The notes under the pieces: model-generated
Told to the model about the DNA's origin: nothing
The model's input: the letters and a program-made list of their open reading frames with translations, nothing else
The model's database searches: none
Source of the DNA: Escherichia coli
GTDB taxonomy: Bacteria; Pseudomonadota; Gammaproteobacteria; Enterobacterales; Enterobacteriaceae
Strand: one strand, 5' to 3'
DNA length: 64,000 nt
Assembly (NCBI RefSeq): GCF_046105845.1
Contig: NZ_CP151004.1
Position numbers and translations under genes: made by a program
Shown: positions 17,270 to 44,898 of the stretch, one piece after another
How positions within the stretch are numbered: the stretch's first letter is position 1
Layout of the letters: every line of letters begins with the position of its first letter

Positions 17270-18838
17270 TTAGCGTGCCGGCTGAGTAGTCGTGGAAGAC
17301 TGCTCAAAGTGATAGCGACCGGTTTTCAGGCTGCTTGGGCCGAGGCGTGCAAATTTGAACATTAAGAACAATTCTGCCACCAGGAACAGGGTATACAGGC
17401 CGCAAATCAGCACCATTGAGAAGATGAGATCGCCTGCGGTCAGTGACGAGTTCGCCACAGCTGTCGGCAGCACTTCACCGATAGCCCACGGTTGGCGGCC
17501 ATATTCAGCCACGAACCAGCCCGCTTCTACAGCAATCCACGGCAGCGGAATACCGTACAGCGCGGCGCGCAGCAGCCATTTTTTCTCGCCAATACGGTTG
17601 CGGATGACACTCCAGAAAGAGAGCGCGATGATTGCCAGCAGCAGGAAGCCACACGCCACCATGATACGGAACGCGAAGTACAGCGGCGCTACACGCGGAA
17701 TGGAGTCTTTGGTTGCCTGTTGAATCTGCGCTTCAGTCGCATCAGCCACGTTTGGCGTATAGCGTTTCAGCAGCAGACCGTAACCGAGGTCTTTCTTCAT
17801 GCTATTGAACTGGTCACGAACCGCCTGGTCGGTAGAACCAGAACGCAGTTGCTCGAGCAGAGAGTACGCCTTCATCCCGTTACGAATGCGTTCTTCATGC
17901 TGCACCATCAGTTCTTTCAGGCCGATAACTGGAGTATCCACGGAACGCGTTGCAATGATGCCCAGCGCGTAAGGGATCTGGATCGCAAATTTGTTCGTCT
18001 CCTCTTCCTGATCAGGAATGCCGAACAGAGTAAAGGCAGCAGGCGCAGGTTGCGTTTCCCACTCGGCTTCAATAGCAGCCAGTTTGGTTTTCTGCACGTC
18101 GCCCATTTCGTAACCAGATTCATCACCCAGAACAATAACAGACAGAACGGCAGCCATACCGAAGCTGGCAGCGATAGCAAAGGAGCGTTTAGCGAAGGCG
18201 AAGTCACGACCTTTCAGCATATACCATGCGCTGATACCGAGGATGAACATCGCGCCAGTCACATAACCAGACGCTACAGTGTGAACGAATTTCACCTGAG
18301 CAACCGGGTTAAGCACCAGCTCGGAGAAGCTCACCATCTCCATACGCATAGTTTCAAAGTTGAAATCGGACGCGATTGGGTTTTGCATCCAGCCGTTCGC
18401 AACCAGAATCCACAGTGCGGACAGGTTTGAACCGAGCGCCACCAGCCAGGTGACACACATATGCTGAACTTTACCCAGACGATCCCAACCGAAGAAGAAC
18501 AGACCTACAAAGGTGGATTCGAGGAAGAAGGCCATCAGACCTTCGATTGCCAGCGGCGCACCGAAGATATCCCCTACATAGTGGGAATAGTAAGACCAGT
18601 TAGTCCCGAACTGGAACTCCATGGTCAGACCGGTTGCCACACCCAGAGCGAAGTTGATACCAAACAACTTGCCCCAGAACTTGGTCATATCTTTATAAAT
18701 CTGTTTGCCGGAAAGGACGTAGACCGTTTCCATAATGGCCAGCAGGAACGCCATACCGAGCGTCAGTGGCACAAAAAGGAAGTGGTACATCGCGGTCAAG
18801 GCAAACTGTAAGCGCGACAGTTCGACTATATCTAACAT
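17270..18838 (-). CDS. cydA: cytochrome bd-I ubiquinol oxidase subunit I
   Basis: 522 aa from [28 protein letters not shown]; the ORF-track start one codon upstream is rejected. Confidence 0.97.
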
Positions 18839-19175
18839 CATGACTCCTTGCTCATCGCATGAAGACTCCGAGAGTGAACCCCGTTAGAAAGGGTCACACG
18901 CATGCCCCAATACAAAATTATTTGCTCGCCTCTATCGTTGCCATTTCATCAAAAGAGGAAAAGACAATGATAAAAAAGTTACAAATATGTTAATGAATAA
19001 ACCAAATTGATCCCGTAATTATATTACGCCGCAAAATCCTTACAATAAACAGGTTTTTATTGAGCAAATTTGCATTTTTCGACAGTGATCAATTTATAGC
19101 GAAATTGTCACGATCTCACCAATTTGATCTACGACAATTTATCGTGTTTTGCAGATTTTTTTCAAGAATTAAAAA

Positions 19176-19189
19176 TTGATTTATATCAA
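19176..19189. promoter_or_regulatory. FNR-type palindrome in the cydA upstream regulatory region
   Basis: Perfect TTGAT-N4-ATCAA (ttgatttatatcaa) about 340 bp upstream of the cydA ATG; cydAB is FNR/ArcA-controlled in E. coli. Confidence 0.5.
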
Positions 19190-19643
19190 AACCAACCAAA
19201 TATGTTAATTATGTATAAACCATAGATCATTGGTGATTTTATTGTTAATTTATTGTGAAATATTTATGCAACACAATTATTACAATGAAAAGGTATAGAT
19301 AAAAAACCAGTGTTTTATTTAACAGAACCGCCTTATCCACTTTTTATAATACCAATTGATTAGATTAGCCAATTTGTTGCTATTTTACATAACATATTTT
19401 TATCAAAGTTAATTGATTGTTGCCTTTATGAGCACCGGCCGTAAGCCCGTTATGTTATTGTTTCATTAGTAATAATCACTTAAATGTATCGATGAAACAG
19501 GTATGACTTAGCGGGAGTGATTGTTTCTGAGTGAACAGAGACCACTTTCGCCTGATAAATGAAAAATGAGCGATTTTTGCAAGTTAGTTTTTCTATAGCC
19601 GAGTACGCTCAGCGCCTCGCTTGATTACAATGAGGTTGCTGCT

Positions 19644-20588
19644 ATGAGTCCTGATAATATCAGTTCTGCTGTCAATCGCTTCTCAGGTTGGCCATCTAAT
19701 AATCCTCTAAAAACAGATAACGAATCAATGACATCACCCATGACTGTGCAGGTAATAAAGATGATTGCCGCCATCCTTGACCCACATCGGATAGTCGTTG
19801 GAATCGATACACTTTATACAACGCAGCGCGAAACATTTACCTCAGAGAGTCAACAGCTCATTGAATCAGCATTGCAAACACTTCATGTGATGAATTTAAA
19901 TAACCTGGAAACAAATCTCGATGAGGAAGGTCACTATCTGGCTTTTGGATATAACGTTGACACTCCTGACAGAATAACCGTTTCTGCTTATAATGAAAAA
20001 AAGCCTGGCTGCTATGGCCAATGTCTTTTAATACAGGATGACGAAACAGACTTATTTAACCTGATAAAAGTTAAAATTTTTGAAGCCAGGCATAATTATG
20101 TCGCTCAATTGATGAGCGATCCGGAATTTATGTTCAAATTTAGTTATAGCGCTCAACAAAATAGATTAGAACCTCATCTTCTGGTTCCCACTTATTTCCC
20201 TCTAAAAACAAACGAACCGGTTACGCAAGAGGATGTACTGTTACTTTATCGTTTCTTTAAAATGGATGGTGATTTTAATATATTAACATCAGATGAATAC
20301 ATGAGTATCATGACACCTCTGATGAAGTGTGAGCGCAGCATCCACGACCACAACAGGTATGTGACGGGCAAAGATACCCTTCTTCTGGACTATCCTCCTT
20401 CTGGTAACCAGATATATTTCCATATTTTTCCTGACGAATCAGCAACACTAGTCCTTTATTTTTCAAACAATGACATTGAATGTTTCGTCTTTGAAAGAGA
20501 TATTCCGAGCCAGTATCGCTTTTTCAAAATGTTTACCAATCTGGCACTGGTTATTGATCAGTTAACCGATGCCAATCAAATACTTTAA
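19644..20588 (+). CDS. hypothetical protein, no recognisable family (orphan island gene A)
   Basis: 314-aa ORF with a GAGG RBS 7 nt upstream; markedly AT-rich (24 G+C in the first 60 nt); Ser/Asn/Pro-rich N-terminus. Confidence 0.7.
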   Translation: MSPDNISSAVNRFSGWPSNNPLKTDNESMTSPMTVQVIKMIAAILDPHRIVVGIDTLYTTQRETFTSESQQLIESALQTLHVMNLNNLETNLDEEGHYLAFGYNVDTPDRITVSAYNEKKPGCYGQCLLIQDDETDLFNLIKVKIFEARHNYVAQLMSDPEFMFKFSYSAQQNRLEPHLLVPTYFPLKTNEPVTQEDVLLLYRFFKMDGDFNILTSDEYMSIMTPLMKCERSIHDHNRYVTGKDTLLLDYPPSGNQIYFHIFPDESATLVLYFSNNDIECFVFERDIPSQYRFFKMFTNLALVIDQLTDANQIL

Positions 20589-20668
20589 TTTTTATATATT
20601 CTCTGTGGCAAATATTGCTAAACAATGCCCGGGGATTAATTTTTATTACTCACGGAAAGATTTAAATA

Positions 20669-21091
20669 ATGATCCCATCTCAAATCTCTTTCAACACCCT
20701 TCCTGTCAATGCAACATACGCTTCAGAGACAACAGTTGACACACAAAAATTCTCTGACATCCTCTACTCAGCGGGGTGTTCCCTAAAGGATCTGGCTTAT
20801 CTGAGCAGATGTCTGGCATCAATACATCCGACTATCGCCAAAAACATTTATGAAACAGAAAATCTCAGCGATCAAAAATTACTACATATTGATTGCCGTA
20901 GTACAAATGAAATCAAGATAAATATCTTTTTTGGTCAACAACGAGAAGGATTAATTGAAATTAGTTCTGACACAGTCATTTTTTCGATACTGTCTTCATT
21001 GATTGACTCCACCATTTCTAAATTTCAACACCAAAACCCCGTTAACGGTTCTGTAAATCCTGGCCTATTGTATGAGGATTATACTGATTAA
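20669..21091 (+). CDS. hypothetical small acidic protein (orphan island gene B)
   Basis: 140-aa ORF 80 bp downstream of gene A on the same strand; AT-rich; about 16 Asp/Glu versus 9 Lys/Arg by count. Confidence 0.65.
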   Translation: MIPSQISFNTLPVNATYASETTVDTQKFSDILYSAGCSLKDLAYLSRCLASIHPTIAKNIYETENLSDQKLLHIDCRSTNEIKINIFFGQQREGLIEISSDTVIFSILSSLIDSTISKFQHQNPVNGSVNPGLLYEDYTD

Positions 21092-21638
21092 ATCCCTCCT
21101 GTCGCGAAAAATGGCCTGCGTTATTGCCAGACGTAATAAAACTTTTGATTAACGTTTCTCGTACTGGTAGCACTTTCATGTACTTTTCTTTTTTACGAAA
21201 AATCAAAAGAGCTAACAAAGGTCATAATTCGCATGAATCATTAATTATTTGTTATTTTCAACATTATTTTTACATTAAGCAGAGATGAATTGCAGTGAAA
21301 TTCGACTTAACTTTTACGAAATGCATTTACTCATGGCTAAAGCCACGTCACAAAAATGCAAATTAGAAGTTGATCACAATTATCTCAATACATCAAATCA
21401 AGTTAATTTTAAAAATTTAACATTCATGACATTAGTTGACATAACACACTGAATTAAAATGAGAATTTGGAAACACACTTTAAACAATCATTTCCCGAAA
21501 GACATTTTGAAAATAGATCAATTGCAACATTACGGTCAGATAAAGACACTCCTGTGATATTAAACCTGTGCCGTTATGAACGGCCATAAATACGGCGTGT
21601 GTAACTTATTTTACTCTCTGTCTTACAAAGGATTACCC

Positions 21639-22088
21639 ATGAAGAAAGCAACACTTGTGATTGGCGTTATTGGCGCGGACTGCCATGCAGTAGGCAATAA
21701 AGTTCTGGACCGCGTTTTTAGCAACCATGGCTTCAGAGTCATTAATCTGGGCGTAATGGTCAGCCAGGACGAATATATTGATGCTGCCATTGAAACTGGC
21801 GCTGACGCGATTGTCGTCTCCTCTATCTATGGGCATGGCGATATCGACTGTCTGGGCATGCGCGAACGCTGCATCGAGCGTGGGCTGGGTAACATCCTGC
21901 TCTATGTGGGCGGTAACCTGGTGGTCGGAAAACATGACTTCGCTGACGTGGAAACCAAATTCAAAGAGATGGGATTTGATCGCGTCTTTTCCCCAAGTCA
22001 TGACTTAGAAGATGTTTGTCAGCTGATGGCCCACGATATCAACCAACGTCATGACGTTGATACTCGTATTCTTGAAGAGGCAATCTGA
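21639..22088 (+). CDS. glmS: glutamate mutase (methylaspartate mutase) small S subunit, cobalamin-binding; clostridial GlmS/MutS, not glucosamine-6-P synthase
   Basis: 149 aa from [24 protein letters not shown] with AAGGA RBS; DxHxxG B12-binding motif; strong similarity to Clostridium MutS/GlmS as I recall it; ORF-track start at 21576 rejected. Confidence 0.9.
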
Positions 22089-23476
22089 TGCAAATCGTCT
22101 CTGTCGATATTGGATCGACGTGGACCAAAGCAGCCCTCTTCGCCCGGGAGGGGGACGCGTTAACGTTGGTTAACCACGTACTGACCCCAACCACCACCCA
22201 TCATCTGGCGAAGGGGTTTTTCTCCAGCCTGAACCTGGTGTTAAACGTAGATAATGCCCTCCCCCTGTTTAACAGCGGTGAGGTTGCATTGAAGTATTCC
22301 TCCTCTGCCAAAGGTGGGCTGGCGGTTGCCGCAATGGGATTGGTGCCTTCTATCACCCTGGAAACCGCGAAAGTAACCGCTCACTCTGCGGGTGCTAAAA
22401 TTGCGCAATATTACGCCTACAAGCTGAACCGTCGTGATATCCAGGCACTGGAAGAAACGCAGCCCGATATTCTCTTGTTCACCGGCGGCACCGATGGCGG
22501 AGAAGAAAGCTACGGACTGAATAACGCCCGTGTGTTGGCAGAATCCAAACTCGACTGCGCCATTATTTATGCCGGAAACCGGGATATTCAGGACGAGGTG
22601 CAGGAGATCCTCGGGCATAAAGACCTGACCATCGTCGACAACGTTCTGCCCGATCTTGACCATCCGAACCCTTTAGCTGCACGCCAGGCTATCTGCGACA
22701 TATTCCTTAAACGCATCGTTAAAGGGAAAGGGCTGGATGTCGTTGTTGATAAAACAGGCGAAGAACCAATGCCGACACCGTGGACAGTCTTTGAACTGGT
22801 TAAGGCAATCAGTAATGTCGATCACAGCTGGAAAGAGTTCATGCTGATCGACATGGGTGGCGCAACCACCGATGTCTATTCCGCCTGTGCCAACACGCTC
22901 TCGCCCGACACCGTTTTACACGGCGTACCGGAACCCTTCGTGAAACGGACGGTGGAAGGCGATCTGGGAATGCGCGTCTCGGCAATGGTGGTTGGTGAAA
23001 GTGCGAAAGAGTTAGTCAATGTGAATTTTGCTCAGCAACCCGCACAGCTGGACGCTTTTTATCATTACCTCCGTCATCTAGTCGCTCATCCCGACTACTT
23101 ACCCGCGAATGCAGAAGAAAAATATTTCGATACCGTCCTGGCCGGACTGTGTGTGGGTTATGCCACCGAAAGACATGCGGGCACCAAAAAAGAGGTCTGC
23201 ACCTGCGTCGGCAATGTCGATTTACAGATGGGACGTGACCTGACAACCGTGCGTAAAGTCGTCGGATCCGGCGGATGGCTCTCGCGTGCCAGTCAGTTCG
23301 ATATGCATCACTGGTTGAAATACCGCGAGTTAAACGACGACGGTAAACGCATTCTCTTACCGACCGAATTTGAATATTACCGCGATTCCCGGGGGCTATT
23401 ACCACTGCTGGCAAACGTCGCCAGAGTCGATCCGCTGGCCGCCGCGCGCACCAGTATTCAATGCTTAACCCTATAA
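22088..23476 (+). CDS. glmL: glutamate mutase-associated protein GlmL/MutL (putative mutase reactivase/chaperone)
   Basis: 462 aa; start overlaps the glmS stop (TGATG); N-terminus IVSVDIGSTWTKAALF is an ASKHA-like ATPase fold motif; conserved position between the S and E subunit genes. Confidence 0.85.
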   Translation: MQIVSVDIGSTWTKAALFAREGDALTLVNHVLTPTTTHHLAKGFFSSLNLVLNVDNALPLFNSGEVALKYSSSAKGGLAVAAMGLVPSITLETAKVTAHSAGAKIAQYYAYKLNRRDIQALEETQPDILLFTGGTDGGEESYGLNNARVLAESKLDCAIIYAGNRDIQDEVQEILGHKDLTIVDNVLPDLDHPNPLAARQAICDIFLKRIVKGKGLDVVVDKTGEEPMPTPWTVFELVKAISNVDHSWKEFMLIDMGGATTDVYSACANTLSPDTVLHGVPEPFVKRTVEGDLGMRVSAMVVGESAKELVNVNFAQQPAQLDAFYHYLRHLVAHPDYLPANAEEKYFDTVLAGLCVGYATERHAGTKKEVCTCVGNVDLQMGRDLTTVRKVVGSGGWLSRASQFDMHHWLKYRELNDDGKRILLPTEFEYYRDSRGLLPLLANVARVDPLAAARTSIQCLTL

Positions 23477-23494
23477 CAATTAAGGCTGCAATCA

Positions 23495-24940
23495 ATGGAA
23501 CTTCGAAATAAGAAATTAACCCATGACGAATTCATGACCGAGCGGCAACAGGTACTGAAAACCTGGGAAACCGGCAAGGATGTTGAAAACTTTGAAGATA
23601 GCGTTAAATACCAACAAACCATTCCTGAGCATAAACGCTTCTCTCTTGCGCTGTTGAAAGCAGACAAGGAAGGTAAAACCCTTAGCCAACCGCGCGCAGG
23701 TGTGGCGCTGATGGACGAACACATCGAACTACTGAAAACACTACAAGAAGAGTGCGATCTGCTGCCGAGCACTATCGATGCATATACCCGTCTGAATCGG
23801 TACGAAGAAGCGGCTGTAGGGATTAAAAAATCCATCGAAGCCGGAACCTCTAAACTGAACGGTTTGCCGGTAGTTAACCATGGCGTCGCAGCTTGCCGTC
23901 GCCTCACCGAAGCCCTGCAAAAACCGCTACAGATCCGCCACGGCACGCCAGATGCGCGTCTGCTGGCTGAAATCTCGATGGCCAGCGGCTTTACCAGTTA
24001 TGAAGGCGGCGGCATTTCCTACAATATTCCGTATGCCAAGCGCGTAACGCTGGAAAAATCGATCCGCGACTGGCAGTACTGCGACCGTTTAATGGGGATG
24101 TATGAAGAACACGGGATCCGCATCAACCGCGAACCGTTTGGCCCACTAACGGGTACGCTGATCCCGCCGTTTATCTCGCACTCTATCGCGATAATCGAAG
24201 GATTGCTGGCACTGGAACAGGGTGTGAAATCTATCACCGTTGGTTATGGCCAAGTCGGCAGCCTGACGCAGGATGTTGCGGCGATCCAGTCTCTGCGTGA
24301 ACTTGCACACGAATATTTTCAGAGCTATGGCTATACCGACTATGAATTGAGTACCGTGTTTCACCAGTGGATGGGCGGCTTTCCGGAAGACGAATCGAAA
24401 GCGTTCGCTATTATCTCCTGGGGCGCAGCCGTCGCGGGGATGTCTGGTGCCACCAAAGTCATCACCAAAAGTCCGCACGAAGCCTGGGGAATCCCGACTG
24501 CCGCTGCCAACATTCAGGGGCTGAAAGCCTCCCGCCAGATGCTCAACATGGTCAATGAGCAGAAATTCCCGCCGTGCCCTGCGGTTGAACTGGAAATTGA
24601 ACTGATTAAGAGCGAGGTTCGCGCGGTACTGAATAAAGTGTTCGAACTGGGTAATGGTGATATTGCGCGCGGTACGGTGCTGGCATTTGAAGCGGGCGTA
24701 CTGGATGTGCCGTTTGCGCCAGCCGCCTGCAACGCGGGCAAAATTCTTCCGGTCCGTGACAACACCGGCGCGATACGCGTACTGGAAGCCGGAGCCGTTC
24801 CATTGCCAAAAGATATTCTCGACCTCCACCACGATTACGTTGCGGAACGCGCACGCTTTGAAGGACGCCAACCGACATTCCAGATGGTTGTAGATGACAT
24901 CAATGCTGTATCCCACAGTAAATTAATAGGAAGACCATAA
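23495..24940 (+). CDS. glmE: glutamate mutase (methylaspartate mutase) large E subunit
   Basis: 481 aa; long collinear similarity to Clostridium GlmE/MutE (MELRNKKLT...QPRAGVALMDEHIELL...HQWMGGFPEDESKAF...). Confidence 0.93.
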   Translation: MELRNKKLTHDEFMTERQQVLKTWETGKDVENFEDSVKYQQTIPEHKRFSLALLKADKEGKTLSQPRAGVALMDEHIELLKTLQEECDLLPSTIDAYTRLNRYEEAAVGIKKSIEAGTSKLNGLPVVNHGVAACRRLTEALQKPLQIRHGTPDARLLAEISMASGFTSYEGGGISYNIPYAKRVTLEKSIRDWQYCDRLMGMYEEHGIRINREPFGPLTGTLIPPFISHSIAIIEGLLALEQGVKSITVGYGQVGSLTQDVAAIQSLRELAHEYFQSYGYTDYELSTVFHQWMGGFPEDESKAFAIISWGAAVAGMSGATKVITKSPHEAWGIPTAAANIQGLKASRQMLNMVNEQKFPPCPAVELEIELIKSEVRAVLNKVFELGNGDIARGTVLAFEAGVLDVPFAPAACNAGKILPVRDNTGAIRVLEAGAVPLPKDILDLHHDYVAERARFEGRQPTFQMVVDDINAVSHSKLIGRP

Positions 24941-26181
24941 TGAAAATAAAACAGGCCCTGTTCACCGCTGGCTATTCCTCATTCTATTTCGATGACCAGC
25001 AGGCGATAAAAAACGGAGCGGGTCACGACGGCTTTTTTTATACCGGGGAGCCAGTAACACAGGGGTTTAACGCCGTACGTCAGGCCGGGGAGTGCGTATC
25101 GGTACAGTTGATTCTGGAAAACGGCGCGGTCGCCGTAGGTGACTGTGCTGCCGTACAGTATTCCGGGGCAGGTGGTCGCGATCCACTGTTCCTCGCGGAG
25201 CACTTTATTCCGTTCCTCAACGACCATATCAAGCCATTACTGGTAGGCCGCGATGTGGATGCTTTCCTGCCGAATGCCCGTTTCTTCGACAAATTGCGTA
25301 TTGACGGCAACTTGCTGCATACCGCCGTGCGCTACGGATTATCACAGGCGCTGCTTGATGCTACCGCGCTGGCAACCGGCCGTCTGAAAACTGAAGTGGT
25401 CTGTGATGAATGGCAGTTGCCACGCGTGGCGGAATCCATTCCATTATTTGGTCAGAGCGGCGACGATCGATATATCGCCGTCGATAAGATGATCCTTAAG
25501 GGCATCGACGTGCTGCCCCATGCGCTGATTAATAACGTCGAAGAGAAGCTGGGCTTTAAAGGTGAAAAACTGCGCGAATATGTCCGCTGGCTGTCGGATC
25601 GTATTCTGAGCAAGCGCACCAGCGCACGCTACCACCCTACCCTGCACATCGATGTATACGGCACTATCGGTCTGATCTTCGATATGGATCCGCTTCGCTG
25701 TGCGCAATACATCGCCAGCCTGGAAAAAGAAGCGCAAGGCCTGCCGCTCTACATTGAAGGGCCGGTCGATGCCGGTAACAAGCCCGATCAAATTCGCCTG
25801 CTGTCCGCGATTACCAAAGAGCTGACGCGCCTCGGTTCCGGCGTGAAAATTGTGGCCGATGAATGGTGTAACACCTACCAGGATATTGTTGATTTCACTG
25901 ATGCCGCCAGTTGCCACATGGTGCAAATCAAAACCCCGGATCTGGGCAGTATTCACAACATCGTCGATGCGGTTCTTTACTGCAACAGCCACAGCATGGA
26001 AGCGTACCAGGGCGGCACCTGCAATGAAACTGATGTCAGTGCCCGCACCTGTGTCCACGTCGCCCTTGCCGCTCGCCCTATGCGTATGCTGGTAAAGCCA
26101 GGGATGGGCTTTGACGAAGGCCTCGATATCGTCTTCAACGAAATGAATCGTACTATCGCGCTGTTGCAGGCTAAGGATTAA
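24940..26181 (+). CDS. mal: 3-methylaspartate ammonia-lyase (beta-methylaspartase)
   Basis: 413 aa; start overlaps the glmE stop; strong similarity to Clostridium MAL (AGHDGF.YTG, CAAVQYSGAGGRDPLFLA, ADEWCNT, HMVQIKTPDLG); enolase-superfamily fold. Confidence 0.93.
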   Translation: MKIKQALFTAGYSSFYFDDQQAIKNGAGHDGFFYTGEPVTQGFNAVRQAGECVSVQLILENGAVAVGDCAAVQYSGAGGRDPLFLAEHFIPFLNDHIKPLLVGRDVDAFLPNARFFDKLRIDGNLLHTAVRYGLSQALLDATALATGRLKTEVVCDEWQLPRVAESIPLFGQSGDDRYIAVDKMILKGIDVLPHALINNVEEKLGFKGEKLREYVRWLSDRILSKRTSARYHPTLHIDVYGTIGLIFDMDPLRCAQYIASLEKEAQGLPLYIEGPVDAGNKPDQIRLLSAITKELTRLGSGVKIVADEWCNTYQDIVDFTDAASCHMVQIKTPDLGSIHNIVDAVLYCNSHSMEAYQGGTCNETDVSARTCVHVALAARPMRMLVKPGMGFDEGLDIVFNEMNRTIALLQAKD

Positions 26182-26184
26182 CAA

Positions 26185-27555
26185 ATGGCTCGTTCTTTTA
26201 AAGTCTTATCGCCAACGGCAATCCTCGGGTATGGATTCCCGGAAGAGAGCTTCCGCAAAGCGATGGCAGAATCGCCCGATCTGATCGCCGTTGATGCAGG
26301 CTCTTCCGATCCTGGCCCCCACTACCTCGGAGCGGGCAAACCGTTTACCGATCGCGCAGGGGTCAAGCGCGATCTGCGCTATATGATCACCGCAGGCGTG
26401 CAAAATAATATACCGGTGGTGATCGGAACGGCCGGCGGTTCTGGTGCCGCTCCACACCTGGAGTGGTGCCGAGAAATAATTCATGAGATTGCCCGGGAAG
26501 AGCACCTCTCGTTCTCGATGGCGCTGATCCCGGCAGACGTTGACAAAGCCATCGTCCACCAGGCGCTGGATAACGGCAAAATCACGGCGCTGGATTTTGT
26601 CCCGCCGTTAACCCACGACGCGATTGACGAAAGTACGTATATCGTCGCGCAAATGGGCATCGAACCCTTCCAGCAGGCGCTGAAAGAAGGCGCGCAAGTG
26701 GTGCTGGGCGGGCGCGCTTACGACCCGGCCTGCTTTGCTGCGCTACCGATCATGCAAGGCTTTGATGAAGGTCTGGCGCTGCATTGTGGGAAAATCCTTG
26801 AATGCGCGGCAATCGCCGCAACGCCCGGCTCAGGCTCTGACTGTGCGATGGGCATCATTGATGACAACGGCTTTACGCTGAAGACATTTAATCCGAAGCG
26901 TAAATTTACCGAAACGTCAGCAGCTGCACACACACTGTATGAGAAATCCGATCCCTACTTCCTGCCTGGACCTGGCGGCGTGTTGAACCTGAAAGACTGC
27001 ACATTTAAAGCGGTCAATGACGGCGAAGTGTACGTCAGCGGTTCTAAGCATGAAGAAACGCCGTATGCCCTGAAACTGGAAGGTGCACGACGGGTGGGCT
27101 TCCGCTGTCTGACCATCGCAGGAACGCGCGACCCGATCATGATCGCCGGGATCGATAAAATCATCGATGAAGTCAAAACCAGCGTTTCGCGTAACCTGTC
27201 GCTCGACGATGACAGCATTCACATCAATTTCCACCTGTACGGCAAAAACGGGGTGATGGGCGACCATGAACCGATGCAAACTGCCGGGCATGAGCTGGGG
27301 ATTGTCCTAGATGTAGTTGCGCCGACCCAGGAAATTGCCAACAGCGTTTGCTCGCTGGTGCGCTCTACTATGCTGCACTACGGCTATGAAAACCGCATCG
27401 CTACCGCAGGCAACCTGGCGTTCCCGTTCTCCCCTTCTGATATCCAGGGCGGGCCGGTATACGAATTTTCCATATATCACCTGATTGAAGCCAACGACGC
27501 TCTGCGTTTTGATTTCCATATTGAACAGGTGACGCCAGAAGGAGTTCAGGCATGA
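26185..27555 (+). CDS. uncharacterised protein, possibly DUF1446/AtuA-like family (assignment from memory, unverified)
   Basis: 456-aa ORF 3 nt after the mal stop in the same operon; Gly-rich motif GTAGGSGAAP; no enzymatic family recognised with certainty. Confidence 0.75.
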   Translation: MARSFKVLSPTAILGYGFPEESFRKAMAESPDLIAVDAGSSDPGPHYLGAGKPFTDRAGVKRDLRYMITAGVQNNIPVVIGTAGGSGAAPHLEWCREIIHEIAREEHLSFSMALIPADVDKAIVHQALDNGKITALDFVPPLTHDAIDESTYIVAQMGIEPFQQALKEGAQVVLGGRAYDPACFAALPIMQGFDEGLALHCGKILECAAIAATPGSGSDCAMGIIDDNGFTLKTFNPKRKFTETSAAAHTLYEKSDPYFLPGPGGVLNLKDCTFKAVNDGEVYVSGSKHEETPYALKLEGARRVGFRCLTIAGTRDPIMIAGIDKIIDEVKTSVSRNLSLDDDSIHINFHLYGKNGVMGDHEPMQTAGHELGIVLDVVAPTQEIANSVCSLVRSTMLHYGYENRIATAGNLAFPFSPSDIQGGPVYEFSIYHLIEANDALRFDFHIEQVTPEGVQA

Positions 27556-27869
27556 AACAGTCAATTGTCTCACTGGCGCAAGTCATTCGTTCGAAAAATG
27601 CCGGACCTTACGAACTGGTTTTAGATATTTTATTTAAAACCAAAGAAAACTATGAGCGAGTTAAATCATCAGGGCAATTAACCCCAGAACTGATCGCGCG
27701 CTTATATCATGTTGAACCTGACTTTATTCATCGTATTGTCTGGTTTGATCCTTCTAACGCAGTAAAAATCGTCATGCCACGAGATATTATCTCCGGGAAT
27801 GTAGGTGACAATGATGTCTATGGTGCACAGCAACATGCACCTTTATTAAATATGAGTTTCGATTTGTAA
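27552..27869 (+). CDS. small uncharacterised protein, possibly DUF4387-like partner of the preceding gene
   Basis: 105-aa ORF whose ATG overlaps the upstream stop (ATGA), indicating translational coupling. Confidence 0.7.
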   Translation: MKQSIVSLAQVIRSKNAGPYELVLDILFKTKENYERVKSSGQLTPELIARLYHVEPDFIHRIVWFDPSNAVKIVMPRDIISGNVGDNDVYGAQQHAPLLNMSFDL

Positions 27870-28029
27870 AAATCCGAATACTTTTAGCCAACTGACATCC
27901 CGTCACTTATTGCAGTTCAACACTTCAGCTATTTGTAAGGTTGTAATAGCAGGTAGATGCCTGAATCTCTATTCAGGCATCTACTTCTCCTGATTCTGAT
28001 TTATCGCCGTGCACCTGATGGAGGAAAAA

Positions 28030-29310
28030 ATGAAGAAAATAAGTTTAACCACGATGATTCTTTTGGCGCTGGTACTTGGAATGATTATCGGCGTAGTGCT
28101 CAATAACACTGCTTCACCGGAAACCGCAAAACTCTATGCGCAAGAAATATCGATATTCACGACGATTTTCTTACGACTGATAAAAATGATTATCGCTCCG
28201 TTAGTGGTCTCTACCCTGGTGGTAGGTATAGCTAAAATGGGCGATGCCAAAGCCCTTGGTCGTATTTTTTCTAAAACACTCTTTTTATTTATTTGCGCCT
28301 CATTGCTGTCAATTGCCTTAGGCTTGATAACAGTAAATTTCTTCATGCCAGGCACAGGAATTAATTTTGTTGCACACGGAGTCGAAACCACCGGAGTGGT
28401 CGCGTCAGAACCCTTTACGCTAAAAGTATTTATTTCGCATGCTTTCCCCACCAGCATTGTCGATGCCATGGCGCACAATGAAATTTTGCAAATCGTGGTG
28501 TTCTCAATTTTCCTCGGCTGTAGCCTGACGGCGATTGGCGAGAAAGGCAGCGCCATCGTTCACGCCTTAGATTCGCTGGCACATGCCATGTTAAAGCTCA
28601 CTGGCTACGTCATGCTCTTCGCTCCCCTGACCGTATTCGCTGCTATTTCAGCATTGATTGCTGAACGAGGACTGGCAGTTATGGTGAGCGCCGGGATCTT
28701 TATGGGTGAATTTTATTTCACCATGTTATTACTTTGGGTGCTGCTTATCGGTCTGGCCATCGTTTATGTCGGCCCCTGCATCAGACGCCTGACCCGCGCC
28801 CTTTCGGAACCCGCCCTGCTGGCATTTACCACATCCAGTTCTGAAGCGGCTTTTCCGGGAACGCTTGAAAAACTGGAGCAATTTGGCGTTTCCCCCAAAA
28901 TTGCCAGCTTTGTCTTACCCATTGGCTACTCATTTAATCTCGTTGGATCAATGGCCTACTGCTCCTTCGCCACAGTTTTCATCGCCCAGGCCTGCAATAT
29001 CCATTTATCCATCGGTGAGCAAATCACCATGCTGTTGATCCTGATGTTGACCTCGAAAGGAATGGCTGGCGTACCACGCGCCTCAATGGTGGTTATCGCC
29101 GCCACGCTCAACCAGTTCAATATTCCGGAAGCGGGGCTGATCTTGCTGATGGGCGTTGATCCGTTCCTTGATATGGGGCGTTCCGCGACAAACGTCATGA
29201 GCAACGCAATGGGCGCTGCGATGGTGAGTCGGTGGGAAGGCGAACATTTCGGCGAGGGCTGTCGGGGTAAAGCATTAAAACCCAATGAATCGAACGTTGC
29301 TCTGCCCTGA
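28030..29310 (+). CDS. dicarboxylate/amino acid:cation symporter (GltP/DctA family), probable glutamate or C4/C5-dicarboxylate importer
   Basis: 426 aa from MKKISLTTMILLALVLGMIIG with GGAGG RBS 6 nt upstream; multi-TM profile typical of the DAACS family; ORF-track GTG start at 28009 rejected. Confidence 0.85.
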   Translation: MKKISLTTMILLALVLGMIIGVVLNNTASPETAKLYAQEISIFTTIFLRLIKMIIAPLVVSTLVVGIAKMGDAKALGRIFSKTLFLFICASLLSIALGLITVNFFMPGTGINFVAHGVETTGVVASEPFTLKVFISHAFPTSIVDAMAHNEILQIVVFSIFLGCSLTAIGEKGSAIVHALDSLAHAMLKLTGYVMLFAPLTVFAAISALIAERGLAVMVSAGIFMGEFYFTMLLLWVLLIGLAIVYVGPCIRRLTRALSEPALLAFTTSSSEAAFPGTLEKLEQFGVSPKIASFVLPIGYSFNLVGSMAYCSFATVFIAQACNIHLSIGEQITMLLILMLTSKGMAGVPRASMVVIAATLNQFNIPEAGLILLMGVDPFLDMGRSATNVMSNAMGAAMVSRWEGEHFGEGCRGKALKPNESNVALP

Positions 29311-29417
29311 GGGGGATCTTAAGCAATCAGAAGCCAATGACTACGCATTTTTATAAGCCGGATCATGAAGTTAGACGGCAATTAAGTAACACTAACGTTT
29401 AAGGTGAAAAGTGAAAT

Positions 29418-31070
29418 ATGTCAAAACCATTTATCTGGCAAGAACCGTTTCTACAAAATAAAGACGGTACAGAATATACATTAATTAGCGATCAGCATAT
29501 TACAGTAACGGAATTAGACGGCGAAGAAGTGATAAAAATCGCTCCTGAAGCATTAACGCTGCTTGCCCGGCAGGCATTTTATGAAGCCTCTTTTTTCTTA
29601 CGTTCCGCTCATTTGCAACAGGTCGCCAGCATTCTTAACGATCCGCAGGCCAGTAGTAATGATAAATACGTTGCGTTGCAGTTATTACGTAATGCTGAAG
29701 TCTCAGCAAAAGGGGTATTACCCAACTGTCAGGATACCGGCACCGCAACTATTGTTGCCAGTAAAGGGCAACAGATATGGACGGGAGGTAACGACGCTGA
29801 AGCCTTAAGCAAAGGCATTTACAGTACTTTCCAGGAAAATAATCTGCGCTTTTCACAAAATGCGCCGCTGGATATGTATACCGAAGTCAATACGCAAACC
29901 AATCTCCCGGCGCAGATTGATATCAGCGCTGTCGCTGGTAATGAGTACCATTTTCTCTGTGTTAATAAAGGGGGCGGCTCCGCCAATAAAGCCGCGCTTT
30001 ATCAGGAAACCAAATCCCTATTGCAACCAGAAAAACTGACCGCATTTTTAATCGAAAAAATGAAATCGCTGGGCACCGCTGCCTGCCCGCCTTACCACAT
30101 CGCCTTTGCCGTCGGAGGGCTTTCAGCCGATCAAACCTTAAAAGTTGCCAAGCTGGCCTCAACGAAATATTACGACAATTTGCCCACCAGCGGAAACGAG
30201 CAGGGACAAGCATTCCGTGATATTGAGCTGGAAAAAGTGTTGCTCGAGGCCAGTCAGCAATTTGGTATTGGTGCGCAATTTGGGGGTAAATATTTCGCTC
30301 ATGATATTCGCGTCATTCGTCTGCCGCGTCACGGTGGCTCTTGCCCGATAGCTATGGCGCTCTCCTGTTCTGCCGATCGCAATATCAAAGCAAAAATTAA
30401 CAAGCACGGTATCTGGCTGGAAAAACTCGAACACAATCCGGGGCAATATATTCCAGCCTCACTGCGGGAAGAAAACCACGCGCAACATGTACAACTGGAT
30501 CTAAACCGTCCGTTGCGTGACGTGATGCAGGATCTCGCCAGATTACCGGTAGGCACCCGCGTGTCGTTAAATGGTCCCATCGTAGTGGCGCGCGATATCG
30601 CCCACGCCAAAATAAAAGCGCGGCTGGATAGCGGCGAACCGATGCCGGATTACCTGAAGCATCATATTGTCTATTACGCTGGCCCGGCGAAAACACCTGA
30701 TAACATGGCCTGCGGTTCACTGGGTCCAACCACGGGCGGTCGAATGGACGGTTATGTCGATACCTTCCAGGCGGCTGGCGGCAGCCTGGTGATGTTATCG
30801 AAAGGTAACCGCAGCCAGCAGGTCACCGATGCCTGTCACAAACATGGCGGCTTCAATCTGGGAAGTATTGGCGGTGCAGCTGCGTTACTGGCGCAAGAAT
30901 ATGTCAAAAGTCTGCGTTGCCTGGAATACCCGGAGCTGGGTATGGAAGCGGTGTGGATGATGGAAGTGGAAAATCTGCCCGCATTCATTCTGGTAGATGA
31001 TAAAGGCAATAATTTCTTTAGTCAGTTTGAACAGCAACACCGCTGCGCCAGTTGCCCTGCGGGACATTAA
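29418..31070 (+). CDS. fumD: class I (Fe-S, FumA/FumB-type) fumarate hydratase paralog, probable mesaconase/fumarase
   Basis: 550 aa, collinear with E. coli FumA/FumB throughout (PFIWQEPF..., CQDTGTA, GGGSANK, CPPYHIA, HGGSCP) but clearly divergent; sits in the methylaspartate operon. Confidence 0.9.
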
Positions 31071-31079
31071 GGAAAATGA

Positions 31080-31682
31080 ATGGAAGCGCGAATTTCAACT
31101 GAACGGCATGTGCAGCGCCAGCAGAAATTGAAGGAACAGGTCGATACGCGCGTCGCGGCGGCGATAGAGAAAAAAGGGATCTTGATTGTTTTCACCGGCA
31201 ACGGCAAAGGGAAATCCACTGCCGCGTTTGGTACTGTAACGCGCGCGGTGGGTCATGGCAAAACGGTGGGGGTTGCGCAGTACATCAAGGGGCAATGGGA
31301 CAACGGCGAATACAACCTTCTCCAGCCGCTGGGGGTTGAGTTTCATATTATGGGAACCGGTTTTACCTGGGAGACACAGAACCGGCAAGCGGATATCGAC
31401 GCGGCGAAAGAGGTCTGGTCGGAAAGCAAACGGATGCTGGCTGACAAGCGTTACGACTTAGTGGTGCTTGATGAGCTGACCTATATGCTGGCTTACCATT
31501 ATCTGGATACCGAAGAAGTGATCGCTTCTCTGCAAAACCGCCCGGCACAACAAAGTGTCATTGTCACCGGACGCGGTTGCCACAGTCAGATATTAAAAAT
31601 GGCGGATACGGTCAGCGAAATCCGCCCCGTCAAACATGCTTTTGATAACGGCATTCAGGCCCAGCCGGGTATCGACTGGTAA
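31080..31682 (+). CDS. cob(I)yrinic acid a,c-diamide / cob(I)alamin adenosyltransferase (BtuR/CobA/CobO family)
   Basis: 200 aa; GNGKGKSTAAFG P-loop and collinear similarity to E. coli BtuR; AAGGAAA RBS. Confidence 0.9.
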   Translation: MEARISTERHVQRQQKLKEQVDTRVAAAIEKKGILIVFTGNGKGKSTAAFGTVTRAVGHGKTVGVAQYIKGQWDNGEYNLLQPLGVEFHIMGTGFTWETQNRQADIDAAKEVWSESKRMLADKRYDLVVLDELTYMLAYHYLDTEEVIASLQNRPAQQSVIVTGRGCHSQILKMADTVSEIRPVKHAFDNGIQAQPGIDW

Positions 31683-31685
31683 TAA

Positions 31686-31717
31686 CTGCGCCTGGCATCC
31701 CGCCAGGCGCAGGTTTT
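31686..31717. terminator. bidirectional hairpin terminator between the operon end and the convergent LysR gene
   Basis: ctgcgcctgg-catcccg-ccaggcgcag stem-loop followed by tttt; overlaps the LysR stop codon on the other strand. Confidence 0.55.
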
Positions 31718-32621
31718 ACATCTCCTGCGGTACAACCGATTTCGCCAGCAACCATTCACGAAATTGCTGCAAGTGCGGTGAGTCAGACTTCTCTTCCTGC
31801 CACGTCATAATAAAACGATTACCGGTACGAATAGGCACATCACAGGGGATCACCATATCGCCACTATCCAAATCATGTTGAATAGCGAAACGTGGTAACA
31901 GCGCCACGCCGAGATTCGAGCGCACGGCGGCAATCAGCATTGAAAGCAAATCGAAACGTGGTCCGTTGTTGACCAGCGGACTGCTAACGCCAGATAAGGC
32001 AAACCACTCTTCCCAGCCAGTAATACGGGTACTTTGATGCAGAAGTGGTAACTCTGTAAGCAGTTCTGCCACTGACAGTTTTTGATCGGACATTGTAAGC
32101 AAACTGCCGCTGCATACCGGCAAAATCTCCTCTTCAAAGAGATATTCTACTTCCGCCCAGGGCGCGCAAAAATTTTCGCGCATAATGACAGCATCGTACT
32201 CCCGATTAAGAAAATCGCCGTTATTAGCTAAAGAGTGAATATTAACAATAATATCGGAATGTAACTTTGTGAATTCATGTAAATTTGGGATTAACCAGTG
32301 GGTACTAAACGTAGGATTCACGGCAAGTTCAATAACCTTAACCGTAGGCTGCCAGGTCATAATGGTATTGGTATCGCGTTCCAGCTTATTTAATGTTTCT
32401 TTTACTATCCCCAGGTAATACTTCCCTGCATCATTAAGAAAAATACGTTTTTTAGAGTGTGAAAATAACGGAGTATGTAAAAATTCCTCCAGCGCACTCA
32501 CTTGTCTGAATACTGCACTTTGGGTCAACGCTAACTCCTCTGCCGCTCTGGTATAACTTTCATGACGTGCGACGACCTCAAAAGTCACCAGCAGCTCCGT
32601 TTTAGGTATTTTTCCTCGCAT
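31716..32621 (-). CDS. LysR-family transcriptional regulator
   Basis: 301 aa; N-terminal wHTH (ELLVTFEVVARHESYTRAAEELALTQSAVFRQVSALEEFL) plus substrate-binding domain; convergent with the operon. Confidence 0.9.
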   Translation of the reverse strand: MRGKIPKTELLVTFEVVARHESYTRAAEELALTQSAVFRQVSALEEFLHTPLFSHSKKRIFLNDAGKYYLGIVKETLNKLERDTNTIMTWQPTVKVIELAVNPTFSTHWLIPNLHEFTKLHSDIIVNIHSLANNGDFLNREYDAVIMRENFCAPWAEVEYLFEEEILPVCSGSLLTMSDQKLSVAELLTELPLLHQSTRITGWEEWFALSGVSSPLVNNGPRFDLLSMLIAAVRSNLGVALLPRFAIQHDLDSGDMVIPCDVPIRTGNRFIMTWQEEKSDSPHLQQFREWLLAKSVVPQEM

Positions 32622-33185
32622 AATGCCGTCCCTTAAAAATAGTTTAAACCATCAAAAATACATTACTTATTACGAAGTAATGGTAACCAAAGCAGCAATA
32701 AATAATTTATAAGAATCATGATTGACATTTATAACCCAGTAAGCCTGGCGTGACAAATATCTTAATCAGATAATAATAATCCGAAAAGCACAGCGCCTTT
32801 CGAATTATCCGGAATCACATTAAGTGAAAATTATTAAATTGATATCATTTATCATATCTGTGGATATTATGATAAACAATCAACAAAGATTTTATTTTTG
32901 ATTTATAGCATATCCCTCTAAGAATTTTTGCGATGCTGCAATATCCGGGGTAAAGACCCGATCCTGGCTGACAAATGGCACGACTTGACGATAAGCGGTG
33001 AACATCGCTTTTGTTGATTTACTTAACGCTACGGTCAAACGCTGGGAAGCCAGTGCATCAGGTAACGATTCGAAATTCGCCGTCGTTCTTATTCGTGGCT
33101 TGCGGTCGGTTGCGGCAATCCACAGTGGCTGTGGTCATGCAGTCAAGCCAGCGGTCAGATTTCGACCGTGGTTAACATTTAAGGC

Positions 33186-42878: not shown

Positions 42879-43586
42879 GAATAACGCCCACATGCTGTTC
42901 TTATTATTCCCTGGGGACTACGGGCACAGAGGTTAACTTTCTGTTACCTGGAGACGTCGGGATTTCCTTCCTCCGGTCTGCTTGCGGGTCAGACAGCGTC
43001 CTTTCTATAACTGCGCGTCATGCAAAACACTGCTTCCAGATGCGAAAACGACACGTTACAACGCTGGGTGGCTCGGGATTGCAGGGTGTTCCGGAGACCT
43101 GGCGGCAGTATAGGCTGTTCACAAAATCATTACAATTAACCTACATATAGTTTGTCGGGTTTTATCCTGAACAGTGATCCAGGTCACGATAACAACATTT
43201 ATTTAATTTTTAATCATCTAATTTGACAATCATTCAACAAAGTTGTTACAAACATTACCAGGAAAAGCATATAATGCGTAAAAGTTATGAAGTCGGTATT
43301 TCACCTAAGATTAACTTATGTAACAGTGTGGAAGTATTGACCAATTCATTCGGGACAGTTATTAGTGGTAAACAAGTTTAATAATTCGGATTGCTAAGTA
43401 CTTGATTCGCCATTTATTCGTCATCAATGGATCCTTTACCTGCAAGCGCCCAGAGCTCTGTACCCAGGTTTTCCCCTCTTTCACAGAGCGGCGAGCCAAA
43501 TAACAAACGGGTAAAGCCAGGTTGATGTGCGAAGGCAAATTTAAGTTCCGGCAGTCTTACGCAATAAGGCGCTAAGGAGACCTTAA

Positions 43587-44870: not shown

Positions 44871-44898
44871 TGGTTGATTGCTAAGCCGTTTACTTTCC

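What the first reader, a model, noticed from the sequence alone, without database searches (positions are those of the whole stretch)
19644..21091. Two AT-rich orphan genes of unknown function at the island edge: candidate two-component toxin/effector module
A 314-aa ORF and a 140-aa acidic ORF lie co-directionally, 80 bp apart, each with a plausible RBS. Both are far more AT-rich than the surrounding genes and are bounded by roughly 800 bp and 550 bp AT-rich non-coding stretches. Neither shows any motif I can assign to a known family. The pattern (larger protein with Ser/Asn/Pro-rich N-terminus followed by a small acidic partner) resembles effector plus class I chaperone, toxin plus immunity, or a small phage-defence pair, but this is speculative. 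Their base composition differs from the downstream operon, suggesting a separate acquisition.
Basis: inference. Interest (0 to 1): 0.8.

Follow-up and report, generated by a model that had tools for sequence, protein, structure and literature searches.

The report
Two silent Escherichia-only orphan genes
Two neighbouring AT-rich genes beside the E. coli cydAB operon are real, fast-evolving genes found only in Escherichia, almost never transcribed in the laboratory and often lost, and nothing found here supports the idea that they form a toxin or effector pair.

Summary

Both genes show weak purifying selection (dN/dS about 0.1-0.5). A is demonstrably kept open. They occur in 1135 of 5426 complete E. 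coli genomes, co-inherited with the island.

They are not an obligate pair. E. albertii keeps A intact while B carries a stop codon or is deleted. Another Escherichia lineage has both decayed beside an intact island. At least 438 carrier genomes lack the LEE secretion system.

Published data show RPKM of 5 or less in 11 conditions, and reduced Himar1 insertion typical of low-GC DNA that may be bound by H-NS.

Best reading: ordinary, silenced, lineage-restricted ORFans. The toxin/effector idea is unsupported. One weak lead remains: B insertion mutants were depleted in rabbit colons.

The parts
18842..19479 (.). cydAB upstream control region (AT-rich, GC about 33%). It is shared with E. coli strains that lack genes A and B, and it contains a perfect FNR box at 19176-19189.
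   Evidence: blastn: 91% identity over window 18842-19479 to a B2-type strain (L004), and 80% over the first 373 nt to a K-12-type strain (L005). FNR consensus match with 0 mismatches. cydA at 17270-18841 on the minus strand.
19480..19643 (+). Upstream region private to gene A, and the left junction of the variable sucD-cydA segment. It includes the GAGG ribosome-binding site at 19632-19635.
   Evidence: Homology to strains lacking A and B stops at about 19479. Sequence read.
19644..20588 (+). [not shown]
   Evidence: dN/dS 0.33-0.54 for the substantially diverged allele pairs. ORF-integrity test P = 2e-4. Codon-position bias of substitutions p = 0.002-0.003.
20589..20668 (+). 80-nt A-B spacer. 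Its 3' half, which includes GGAAAG at 20654-20659, is conserved between divergent alleles. No terminator was predicted.
20669..21091 (+). [not shown]
   Evidence: dN/dS 0.11-0.46. The core (residues about 38-114) is conserved and the tails vary. Disrupted or deleted in E. albertii and in MOD1-EC7003.
21092..21638 (.). [not shown]
   Evidence: No Rfam family. 0 of 14 TA sites hit in Tn-seq.
19480..33185 (.). The whole variable segment between the cydAB control region and sucD: A, B, glmS-glmL-glmE-mal, AtuA/DUF4387, a dicarboxylate symporter, fumD, cobO and a LysR regulator.
   Evidence: Junctions. Gene content. Alternative contents of the same interval.

Best explanation
A and B are two genuine but weakly constrained protein-coding genes restricted to the genus Escherichia (ORFans). 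They lie in a 2.8-kb AT-rich block that runs on from the cydAB control region.

Most likely they are leftovers of an old foreign acquisition. The acquisition predates or is independent of the adjacent methylaspartate island. I infer that xenogeneic, H-NS-type silencing keeps them transcriptionally off under ordinary conditions.

They encode soluble, acidic, cytoplasmic alpha/beta proteins with no recognisable catalytic, secretion, DNA-binding or toxin motif.

They are not an interdependent pair. A is the better maintained of the two and probably keeps some conditional, non-essential role. B is dispensable and decays first.

Their near-perfect co-occurrence with the island inside E. coli reflects linkage within one alternative haplotype of the hypervariable sucD-cydA interval, not shared function.

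Shown: the ORFs, their composition, orphan status, distribution, selection pattern and decay pattern. Published data show low RNA levels and reduced transposon insertion. Inferred: H-NS occupancy, foreign origin, and the absence of a toxin or effector role.
For: Orphan status:
- No hit in NCBIfam, PADLOC, PHROGs, Pfam or PDB sequences.
- The word-indexed search of 5.8 billion proteins returned only Escherichia or Shigella proteins, or unnamed proteins at least 65% identical.
- The profile HMM search of 1.84 billion representatives found only fragments of A itself.
- No phage or plasmid relatives.
- The scan of GTDB species representatives found A only in E. albertii, in Escherichia sp. MOD1-EC7003, and in two MAGs, labelled Collinsella and Citrobacter, with 98-99% identical copies that I take to be mis-binned E. 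coli contigs.

Real genes under weak constraint:
- dN/dS is 0.33-0.54 for substantially diverged A pairs and 0.11-0.46 for B. Neighbours: cydA about 0, glmE 0.01-0.10, glmL 0.09-0.20.
- A stays open over 214 substitutions, P = 2e-4.
- Second codon positions are spared.

Fast divergence: A and B differ by 7-11% in nucleotides between E. coli lineages whose flanking genes differ by 1-2.5%. This is similar to the adjacent AT-rich intergenic DNA. It matches the published pattern for H-NS-bound genes and upstream regions (PMC4720273).

Dispensability and independence:
- Present in 1135 of 5426 complete E. coli genomes; the island is in 1131.
- E. albertii-type L002: A intact, B a 31-aa remnant, no island.
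- E. albertii L019-21: A intact, B with a stop at codon 36.
- E. albertii type strain: A frameshifted.
- MOD1-EC7003: A multiply frameshifted and B lacking 93 codons, beside an intact island.
- Shigella dysenteriae: fragments only.

Indirect sign of nucleoid-protein occupancy: only 23-25% of TA sites were hit in A and B, against 56-61% in cydA and glmS. The authors link low-GC under-representation to possible H-NS blocking of Himar1 but leave the cause open (PMC6705877).
Against: - H-NS binding at this locus was not measured in any data I could read. The held supplements of PMC4720273 do not list ECs0766 or ECs0767.
- Low RNA in 11 laboratory or environmental conditions does not exclude strong induction in the gut, under anaerobic glutamate fermentation, or on phage attack.
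- Every one of the 39 sampled full-length E. coli carriers is annotated with both ORFs, none shown as a pseudogene. dN/dS is clearly below 1. Some function is therefore being selected and remains unexplained.
- B insertion mutants fell 16- to 120-fold in 5 of 7 infant rabbits (CompTIS 'CD', Group 2). If real, this hints at an in-host role.
- The structure models were too poor (pLDDT 44 and 40) for fold comparison to exclude any family.
Confidence: 0.6

Rival explanations
1. A and B form a two-gene conflict module, either toxin-antitoxin, effector-immunity, or a small anti-phage defence pair, in which one product neutralises or senses for the other.
For: The genes are co-directional and adjacent with an 80-nt spacer and no predicted terminator between them. 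They always occur together in E. coli. They are AT-rich and fast-evolving, as conflict genes often are. If B were the toxic partner, keeping A after B is lost would resemble an orphan immunity gene.
Against: - No PADLOC, Pfam or PHROG hit.
- Both proteins are acidic, the sizes (314 and 140 aa) are atypical for type II TA, and the genes do not overlap.
- There is no T6SS, Rhs, CDI, integrase or defence-island context. The flanks are cydAB and a metabolic operon.
- A stays intact where B is dead, which excludes 'A toxin, B antidote' unless A is silent.
- Insertions in both genes are recovered in vitro.
- Both are practically untranscribed, unlike constitutively expressed TA or defence operons.
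Confidence: 0.08
2. A, B or both are type III secretion substrates, with B possibly serving as a class I chaperone for A. They would be delivered by the LEE or ETT2 system into host cells.
For: The N-termini are rich in Ser, Thr, Asn, Pro and Ile and lack a hydrophobic signal peptide. B has the size (140 aa) and pI (4.76) typical of class I chaperones and is adjacent to a larger protein. The genes are low in GC and restricted to Escherichia, including LEE-positive E. albertii and O157.
Against: - LEE (escN-escV) is in 697 of 5426 genomes and A/B is in 1135, so at least 438 carriers have no LEE.
- The genes are not in a prophage or exchangeable effector locus.
- No Pfam chaperone or effector hit. 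hhalign of B against CesT and CesF gave probability below 1%.
- E. albertii keeps A but has lost B.
- A showed no colonisation phenotype in rabbits, 'Q' in all 7.
Confidence: 0.06
3. One or both genes are silenced, host-induced fitness factors of unknown biochemistry that matter in the intestine.
For: For B, log2 fold changes across seven rabbits were -6.0, -6.4, +0.2, -5.0, -0.8, -6.9 and -4.2. glPC1 was -1228, in the bottom 10% (CompTIS 'CD', Group 2), a group that also contains ler. Downstream glmS was 'Q', so a polar effect on the island is unlikely. The ORFs are maintained in all sampled E. coli carriers.
Against: Only 5-7 insertion sites were informative, the bottleneck was severe, and the Con-ARTIST consensus was 'Q' (2 of 7 CD). 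Tiny genes such as the thr leader also score 'CD'. The result was not validated by deletion. B is inactivated in E. albertii, itself an intestinal organism. RNA in cattle faeces was 0.
Confidence: 0.12
4. A and B are accessory or regulatory proteins of the adjacent methylaspartate (glutamate fermentation) island.
For: Near-perfect co-occurrence in E. coli, 1135 against 1131 genomes. Same orientation, immediately upstream of glmS. The island is equally silent in vitro.
Against: The island is reported in Klebsiella, Citrobacter, Salmonella, Yersinia, Morganella and others (PMC4682846), yet no A or B homologue exists outside Escherichia. The island is intact with both genes decayed in MOD1-EC7003. 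A is present without the island in L002. GC differs by 15 points, and a 547-nt gap separates B from glmS. The island has its own LysR regulator.
Confidence: 0.06
5. B, and conceivably A, is a non-functional ORF that persists by chance in young lineages.
For: Near-zero RNA. For B, ORF survival over 46 substitutions is not significant (P = 0.09) and the codon-position bias is weak (p = 0.11-0.29 in two comparisons). Both genes diverge about as fast as the neighbouring intergenic DNA. B decays outside E. coli.
Against: For A: the integrity test gives P = 2e-4, dN/dS is about 0.4 over deep divergence, and second codon positions are spared. For B: dN/dS is 0.11-0.46, the 77-residue core is conserved while the tails vary, one comparison gives position counts of 5/1/11 (p = 0.011), and the ORF is intact in all sampled carriers.
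Confidence: 0.08

Closest known systems
Lineage-restricted ORFan genes of E. coli (short, AT-rich, fast-evolving genes with no homologues outside the genus; Daubin and Ochman 2004, recalled from memory; reviewed in PMC12315717, whose abstract appears)
   Same: Homologues only in Escherichia and Shigella. GC is 15 points below the genome. dN/dS is several-fold above that of neighbours but below 1. Presence is patchy and pseudogenisation is frequent. There is no assignable function.
   Different: A, at 314 aa, is long for an ORFan. The genes sit at a fixed chromosomal position next to a core operon, not in a prophage, and no phage relative was found.
Xenogeneically silenced (H-NS-bound) horizontally acquired genes; H-NS-bound genes and upstream regions evolve faster (PMC4720273); H-NS may hinder Himar1 insertion (PMC6705877)
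   Same: An AT-rich block, near-zero transcription, reduced transposon insertion relative to its flanks, and raised non-synonymous and intergenic divergence.
   Different: H-NS occupancy at this locus has not been shown. The block is contiguous with the cydAB promoter region, which I recall (Govantes et al. 2000, not checked here) is itself H-NS-regulated.
Type III effector plus class I chaperone pairs (for example Tir-CesT)
   Same: A small acidic protein adjacent to a larger one. N-termini rich in Ser, Thr and Asn. Low GC.
   Different: No sequence or profile similarity. At least 39% of carriers have no LEE. The 'chaperone' is lost while the 'effector' is kept in E. albertii. The gene order and the 80-nt gap are uninformative.
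Type II toxin-antitoxin or effector-immunity modules
   Same: A two-gene, co-directional, accessory and fast-evolving arrangement.
   Different: No toxin or antitoxin domain. Both proteins are acidic and large. There is no gene overlap and no autoregulated expression. The context is not a mobile element or a secretion system. One partner survives the loss of the other.

Membership tests
Lineage-restricted ORFan / xenogeneic silenced genes | No homologue outside a narrow taxon despite exhaustive search | tested here: met
   only E. coli, Shigella fragments, E. albertii, Escherichia sp. MOD1-EC7003 and unnamed proteins at least 65% identical.
Lineage-restricted ORFan / xenogeneic silenced genes | Base composition markedly more AT-rich than the host genome | tested here: met
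   GC 37-38% (GC3 34-36%) against about 52% for flanking genes.
Lineage-restricted ORFan / xenogeneic silenced genes | Raised evolutionary rate with dN/dS below 1, meaning a coding sequence under weak constraint | tested here: met
   A 0.33-0.54 for substantially diverged pairs and B 0.11-0.46, against 0-0.2 for neighbours. ORF integrity P = 2e-4 for A.
Lineage-restricted ORFan / xenogeneic silenced genes | Transcriptional silence under standard conditions | tested here: met
   Published RNA-seq: RPKM 0-5 (A) and 0-2 (B) in 11 conditions (PMC4048457; tag mapping).
Lineage-restricted ORFan / xenogeneic silenced genes | Direct H-NS/StpA occupancy and derepression in hns mutants | not testable with these tools
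   Indirect evidence only: 23-25% of TA sites hit against 56-61% in the flanks, read with the authors' general suggestion that H-NS may occlude insertion. The held ChAP-seq supplements do not list these genes.
Type II toxin-antitoxin / effector-immunity pair | Recognisable toxin, antitoxin or immunity domain | tested here: not met
   No Pfam, NCBIfam, PADLOC or PHROG hit with E below 0.05.
Type II toxin-antitoxin / effector-immunity pair | Obligate co-retention: the neutralising partner is never lost while the toxic one is intact | tested here: inconclusive
   A is intact with B nonsense-mutated or deleted in E. albertii. This excludes 'A toxin, B antidote' but is compatible with 'B toxin, A orphan immunity'.
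Type II toxin-antitoxin / effector-immunity pair | Toxicity of one product that the other relieves | not testable with these tools
   Needs expression experiments.
Anti-phage defence system | Match to a known defence protein model, or location in a defence island | tested here: not met
   PADLOC gave 0 families. The neighbours are cydAB and a metabolic operon.
T3SS effector plus class I chaperone | Carrier genomes possess the cognate secretion system | tested here: not met
   LEE is in 697 genomes and A/B in 1135, so at least 438 carriers lack LEE. ETT2 was not examined.
T3SS effector plus class I chaperone | Chaperone is small, acidic and adjacent to its substrate | tested here: met
   B is 140 aa with pI 4.76, 80 nt downstream of A. 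These features are non-specific.
T3SS effector plus class I chaperone | CesT/SycE-type fold or family membership of the chaperone | tested here: inconclusive
   No Pfam hit. hhalign against CesT and CesF gave probability below 1%. The AF2 model has pLDDT 39.6, too poor for a fold test. These chaperones are very divergent in sequence.
T3SS effector plus class I chaperone | T3SS-dependent secretion or translocation | not testable with these tools
   Needs secretion assays.
Methylaspartate (glutamate fermentation) gene cluster | Co-occurrence with glmSLE-mal across the taxa that carry the cluster | tested here: not met
   They co-occur only inside E. coli. The cluster is reported in many other genera (PMC4682846) that have no A or B homologue. 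The cluster is intact with decayed A and B in MOD1-EC7003, and A occurs without the cluster in L002.

The most novel reading that the evidence does not exclude
The AT-rich block encodes silenced, host-induced proteins with previously unseen folds. At least B contributes to intestinal colonisation by EHEC, as hinted by the 16- to 120-fold loss of B insertion mutants in 5 of 7 rabbits. Alternatively, A and B together form an unrecognised conflict module that acts only when derepressed.
Probability: 0.12. Interest if true: 0.6.

Novelty: new member of a known kind. Interest (0 to 1): 0.22.

Why it matters
If the main reading is right, this is a clean and well-documented example of what most 'hypothetical' AT-rich genes in E. 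coli accessory DNA are. They are genus-restricted, silenced, weakly selected and repeatedly lost.

It also shows that adjacency plus composition is not enough to call a toxin or effector pair.

The locus could serve as a test case for how ORFans persist. One fixed chromosomal site carries alleles spanning E. coli to E. albertii, at graded stages from intact to nonsense-mutated to deleted.

Only the minority reading, an in-host fitness role for B or a novel conflict module, would change how people think about EHEC biology. That reading currently rests on one unvalidated transposon-screen signal.

Tried and rejected
1. Family assignment. Pfam, NCBIfam, PADLOC, PHROGs and a PDB sequence profile gave nothing. 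The best hits were E = 0.06-0.9 and are noise.

2. Remote homology. A profile HMM search of 1.84 billion representatives returned only fragments of A. An alignment-seeded search for B added only a truncated E. albertii copy.

3. Structure. AF2 on the shallow alignments gave pLDDT 43.7 (A) and 39.6 (B).
- Foldseek against AFDB50 returned only self hits and noise.
- I did not run a fold search on B, because its model is too poor to mean anything.

4. A-B relatedness or an internal repeat in A. hhalign gave probability 1%. Smith-Waterman with shuffles gave z of 1.65 or less. Rejected.

5. 'Distant' B homologues P0046 and P0047 are frameshift artefacts of an indel-ridden assembly (L003).

6. Mobile-element origin. 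No phage or plasmid relatives were found. The three 'plasmid' hits are mislabelled chromosomes or chromosome fragments. No flanking repeats or integrase.

7. RNA elements. No Rfam family at E of 1 or less in 18.7-21.8 kb. Promoter-like and terminator-like sites were within about two standard deviations of the shuffle expectation.

8. Literature. Locus tags are absent from the searchable main texts and from the held supplements of three papers.

Full report
**Observation.** The window is an E. coli chromosome segment, 99.6% identical over the region to O158:H23 strain CFIAFB20140388.

- The ORF list confirms a 314-aa ORF at 19644-20588 (gene A) and a 140-aa ORF at 20669-21091 (gene B). They are on the same strand, 80 nt apart.
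- A has a good ribosome-binding site: GAGG at 19632-19635, 8 nt before the ATG. B has a weak one: GGAAAG at 20654-20659.
- Both proteins are acidic, pI 4.68 and 4.76, and hydrophilic. Neither has a transmembrane segment or signal peptide.
- GC is 38.2% for A and 37.4% for B. The flanking non-coding stretches are 802 nt at 33% GC and 547 nt at 32% GC. cydA is 52.7% and glmS-glmL 52.1%.

The description is accurate. One correction: at least 638 nt of the 802-nt upstream stretch is the conserved cydAB control region. It is shared with E. coli strains that lack A and B and holds a perfect FNR box at 19176-19189. Only about 164 nt is private to gene A.

**Context.**
- Upstream on the opposite strand lies cydABX-ybgE.
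- Downstream lie glmS, glmL, glmE, methylaspartate ammonia-lyase, AtuA/DUF4387, a dicarboxylate symporter, the mesaconase FumD, cobO and a LysR regulator, then sucD.
- This is the known glutamate-fermentation cluster of O157:H7 (PMC4682846).
- The sucD-cydA interval is a variable spot. K-12-type strains carry mngR-mngA-mngB there, and B2-type strains carry a single TPR protein.
- The variable segment in the window spans about 19480-33185.

**Are they real genes?**

For A the answer is yes.
- An E. albertii-type allele with 214 nucleotide differences (65% amino-acid identity) keeps exactly 314 codons.
- Placing the same substitutions at random gives 7.8 stop codons on average. Only 0.02% of trials stayed open.
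- dN/dS is 0.33-0.54 for substantially diverged allele pairs.
- Second codon positions are spared, p = 0.002-0.003.

For B the evidence is weaker but points the same way.
- dN/dS is 0.11-0.46.
- The core (residues about 38-114) is conserved while both tails vary.
- One comparison gives substitution counts of 5, 1 and 11 at codon positions 1, 2 and 3.

Both genes evolve fast.
- They differ by 7-11% in nucleotides between E. coli lineages whose cydA and glm genes differ by 1-2.5%.
- This is about the same as the neighbouring AT-rich intergenic DNA.

**What are they?** Every homology route failed.
- Pfam, NCBIfam, PADLOC, PHROGs and a PDB sequence profile gave no hit.
- The 5.8-billion-protein search returned only Escherichia or Shigella proteins, or unnamed proteins at least 65% identical.
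- The profile search of 1.84 billion representatives returned only fragments of A.
- Phage, plasmid and viral-contig collections gave nothing. The 'plasmid' hits are mislabelled chromosomes.
- A and B are unrelated to each other, and A has no internal repeat.
- There is no Rfam element, no repeat boundary and no integrase in the region.

**Distribution and decay.**
- A+B is present in 1135 of 5426 complete E. coli genomes.
- All 39 sampled full-length carriers are annotated with both ORFs, none shown as a pseudogene. One further genome has an IS4 element in A.
- The methylaspartate genes are in 1131 genomes, so within E. coli the whole segment is inherited as one haplotype.

Outside E. coli the association breaks down.
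- An E. albertii-type contig has cydA, an intact A, a 258-aa outer-membrane-like gene, then sucD. It has no island, and only a 31-aa remnant of B.
- Three E. albertii assemblies have the full arrangement, with A intact but B stopped at codon 36.
- The E. albertii type strain has A frameshifted.
- Escherichia sp. MOD1-EC7003 has an intact island beside a multiply frameshifted A and a B lacking its first 93 codons.
- Shigella dysenteriae has fragments only.

The cluster is reported in Klebsiella, Citrobacter, Salmonella, Yersinia and others, where no A or B homologue exists. A and B are therefore neither part of the pathway nor dependent on each other.

**Expression and fitness data from the literature.**

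Strand-specific RNA-seq of EDL933 across 11 conditions (PMC4048457 Table S4). [quoted passage not shown]

| Gene | RPKM in the 11 conditions |
|---|---|
| cydA | range 2-212 |

Himar1 Tn-seq of EDL933 (PMC6705877 S2 Table):

| Gene | TA sites | Sites hit | Call |
|---|---|---|---|
| A | 64 | 23.4% | Underrepresented |
| B | 28 | 25% | Underrepresented |
| glmS | 18 | 61.1% | Neutral |
| cydA | 62 | 56.5% | Neutral |

- The authors relate under-representation of low-GC genes without K-12 homologues to possible H-NS hindrance of Himar1, and leave the cause open.
- A separate study found that H-NS-bound genes and upstream regions evolve faster than unbound ones (PMC4720273). This matches the divergence pattern seen here.

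In infant rabbits:
- A was 'queried' (no phenotype) in all seven animals.
- B had log2 fold changes of -6.0, -6.4, +0.2, -5.0, -0.8, -6.9 and -4.2. It fell in the bottom 10% of glPC1 scores (CompTIS 'CD', Group 2), but the Con-ARTIST consensus was 'Q'.
- With 5-7 informative sites and a severe bottleneck, this is a lead and not a result.

Effector plus chaperone:
- LEE (escN-escV) is in 697 genomes, so at least 438 of the 1135 carriers lack it.
- B shows no profile similarity to CesT or CesF.
- E. albertii keeps the 'effector' but not the 'chaperone'.
- The N-termini rich in Ser, Thr, Asn and Pro, and the size and pI of B, are compatible with the idea but non-specific.

Toxin-antitoxin, immunity or defence:
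- No model matches, both proteins are acidic, there is no conflict-system context, and expression is silent.
- An intact A with a dead B rules out 'A toxin, B antidote'. The reverse polarity cannot be excluded.

Separate acquisition from the operon: supported.

**Conclusion.** The most likely explanation (about 0.6) is that A and B are ordinary lineage-restricted ORFans.
- They are old foreign DNA at a recombination-prone site.
- They sit in an AT-rich block contiguous with the cydAB promoter region. I infer H-NS-type silencing of this block but have not shown it.
- Selection on them is weak, they are dispensable, and they are lost independently.
- A is better maintained than B.

The toxin, effector and defence-pair reading has no positive evidence, and several observations count against it. 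The residual novel possibility (about 0.12) is a derepression-dependent role, most concretely an in-gut fitness contribution of B.

This is a new, well-characterised member of a known kind, and interest is low.

Noticed in passing
window 19480-33185 (sucD-cydA interval); L002, L004, L005, L019-L021: The interval between sucD and the cydAB control region is a hypervariable spot with at least four alternative contents across Escherichia. They are mngR-mngA-mngB (K-12 type); a single TPR protein (B2 type); A+B plus the methylaspartate island (this window and some E. albertii); and A plus a 258-aa outer-membrane-like gene (E. albertii type).
   Followed up: partly
window 19176-19189: A perfect FNR consensus palindrome, TTGATTTATATCAA, lies 335 bp upstream of cydA. 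This fits the known anaerobic control region of cydAB. It means most of the 'non-coding stretch' upstream of gene A already has a known function.
   Followed up: partly
[not shown]
   Followed up: no
window 29418-31070; L001 22519-25432: The mesaconase/fumarase gene fumD is intact in the window (550 aa) but is split by an ISEc31 insertion in the otherwise closest complete genome.
   Followed up: no
L003 (GCA_002230845.1): An indel-ridden assembly of a near-identical E. coli yields frameshifted ORF fragments. In protein databases these look like 50-59% identical 'distant homologues' of B (P0046, P0047).
   Followed up: yes
L013, L014: Contigs carrying A and B at 98-99% identity are deposited inside MAGs labelled Collinsella sp. 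and Citrobacter sp. This is probably bin contamination by E. coli DNA.
   Followed up: partly
window about 12689-13954 and about 43000-46000: The strong AT skew (-0.48) at 13-14 kb coincides with tolA, placed by coordinate mapping to L001; I assume its repetitive domain is the cause. The GC dip at 43-46 kb probably coincides with the ybg fimbrial operon, by approximate mapping to the closest genome. Both look like ordinary core features.
   Followed up: partly
window 19630-19647: A five-codon mini-ORF (ATG AGG TTG CTG CTA TGA) overlaps the ribosome-binding site and start codon of gene A. Its significance is unknown and it may be chance.
   Followed up: no
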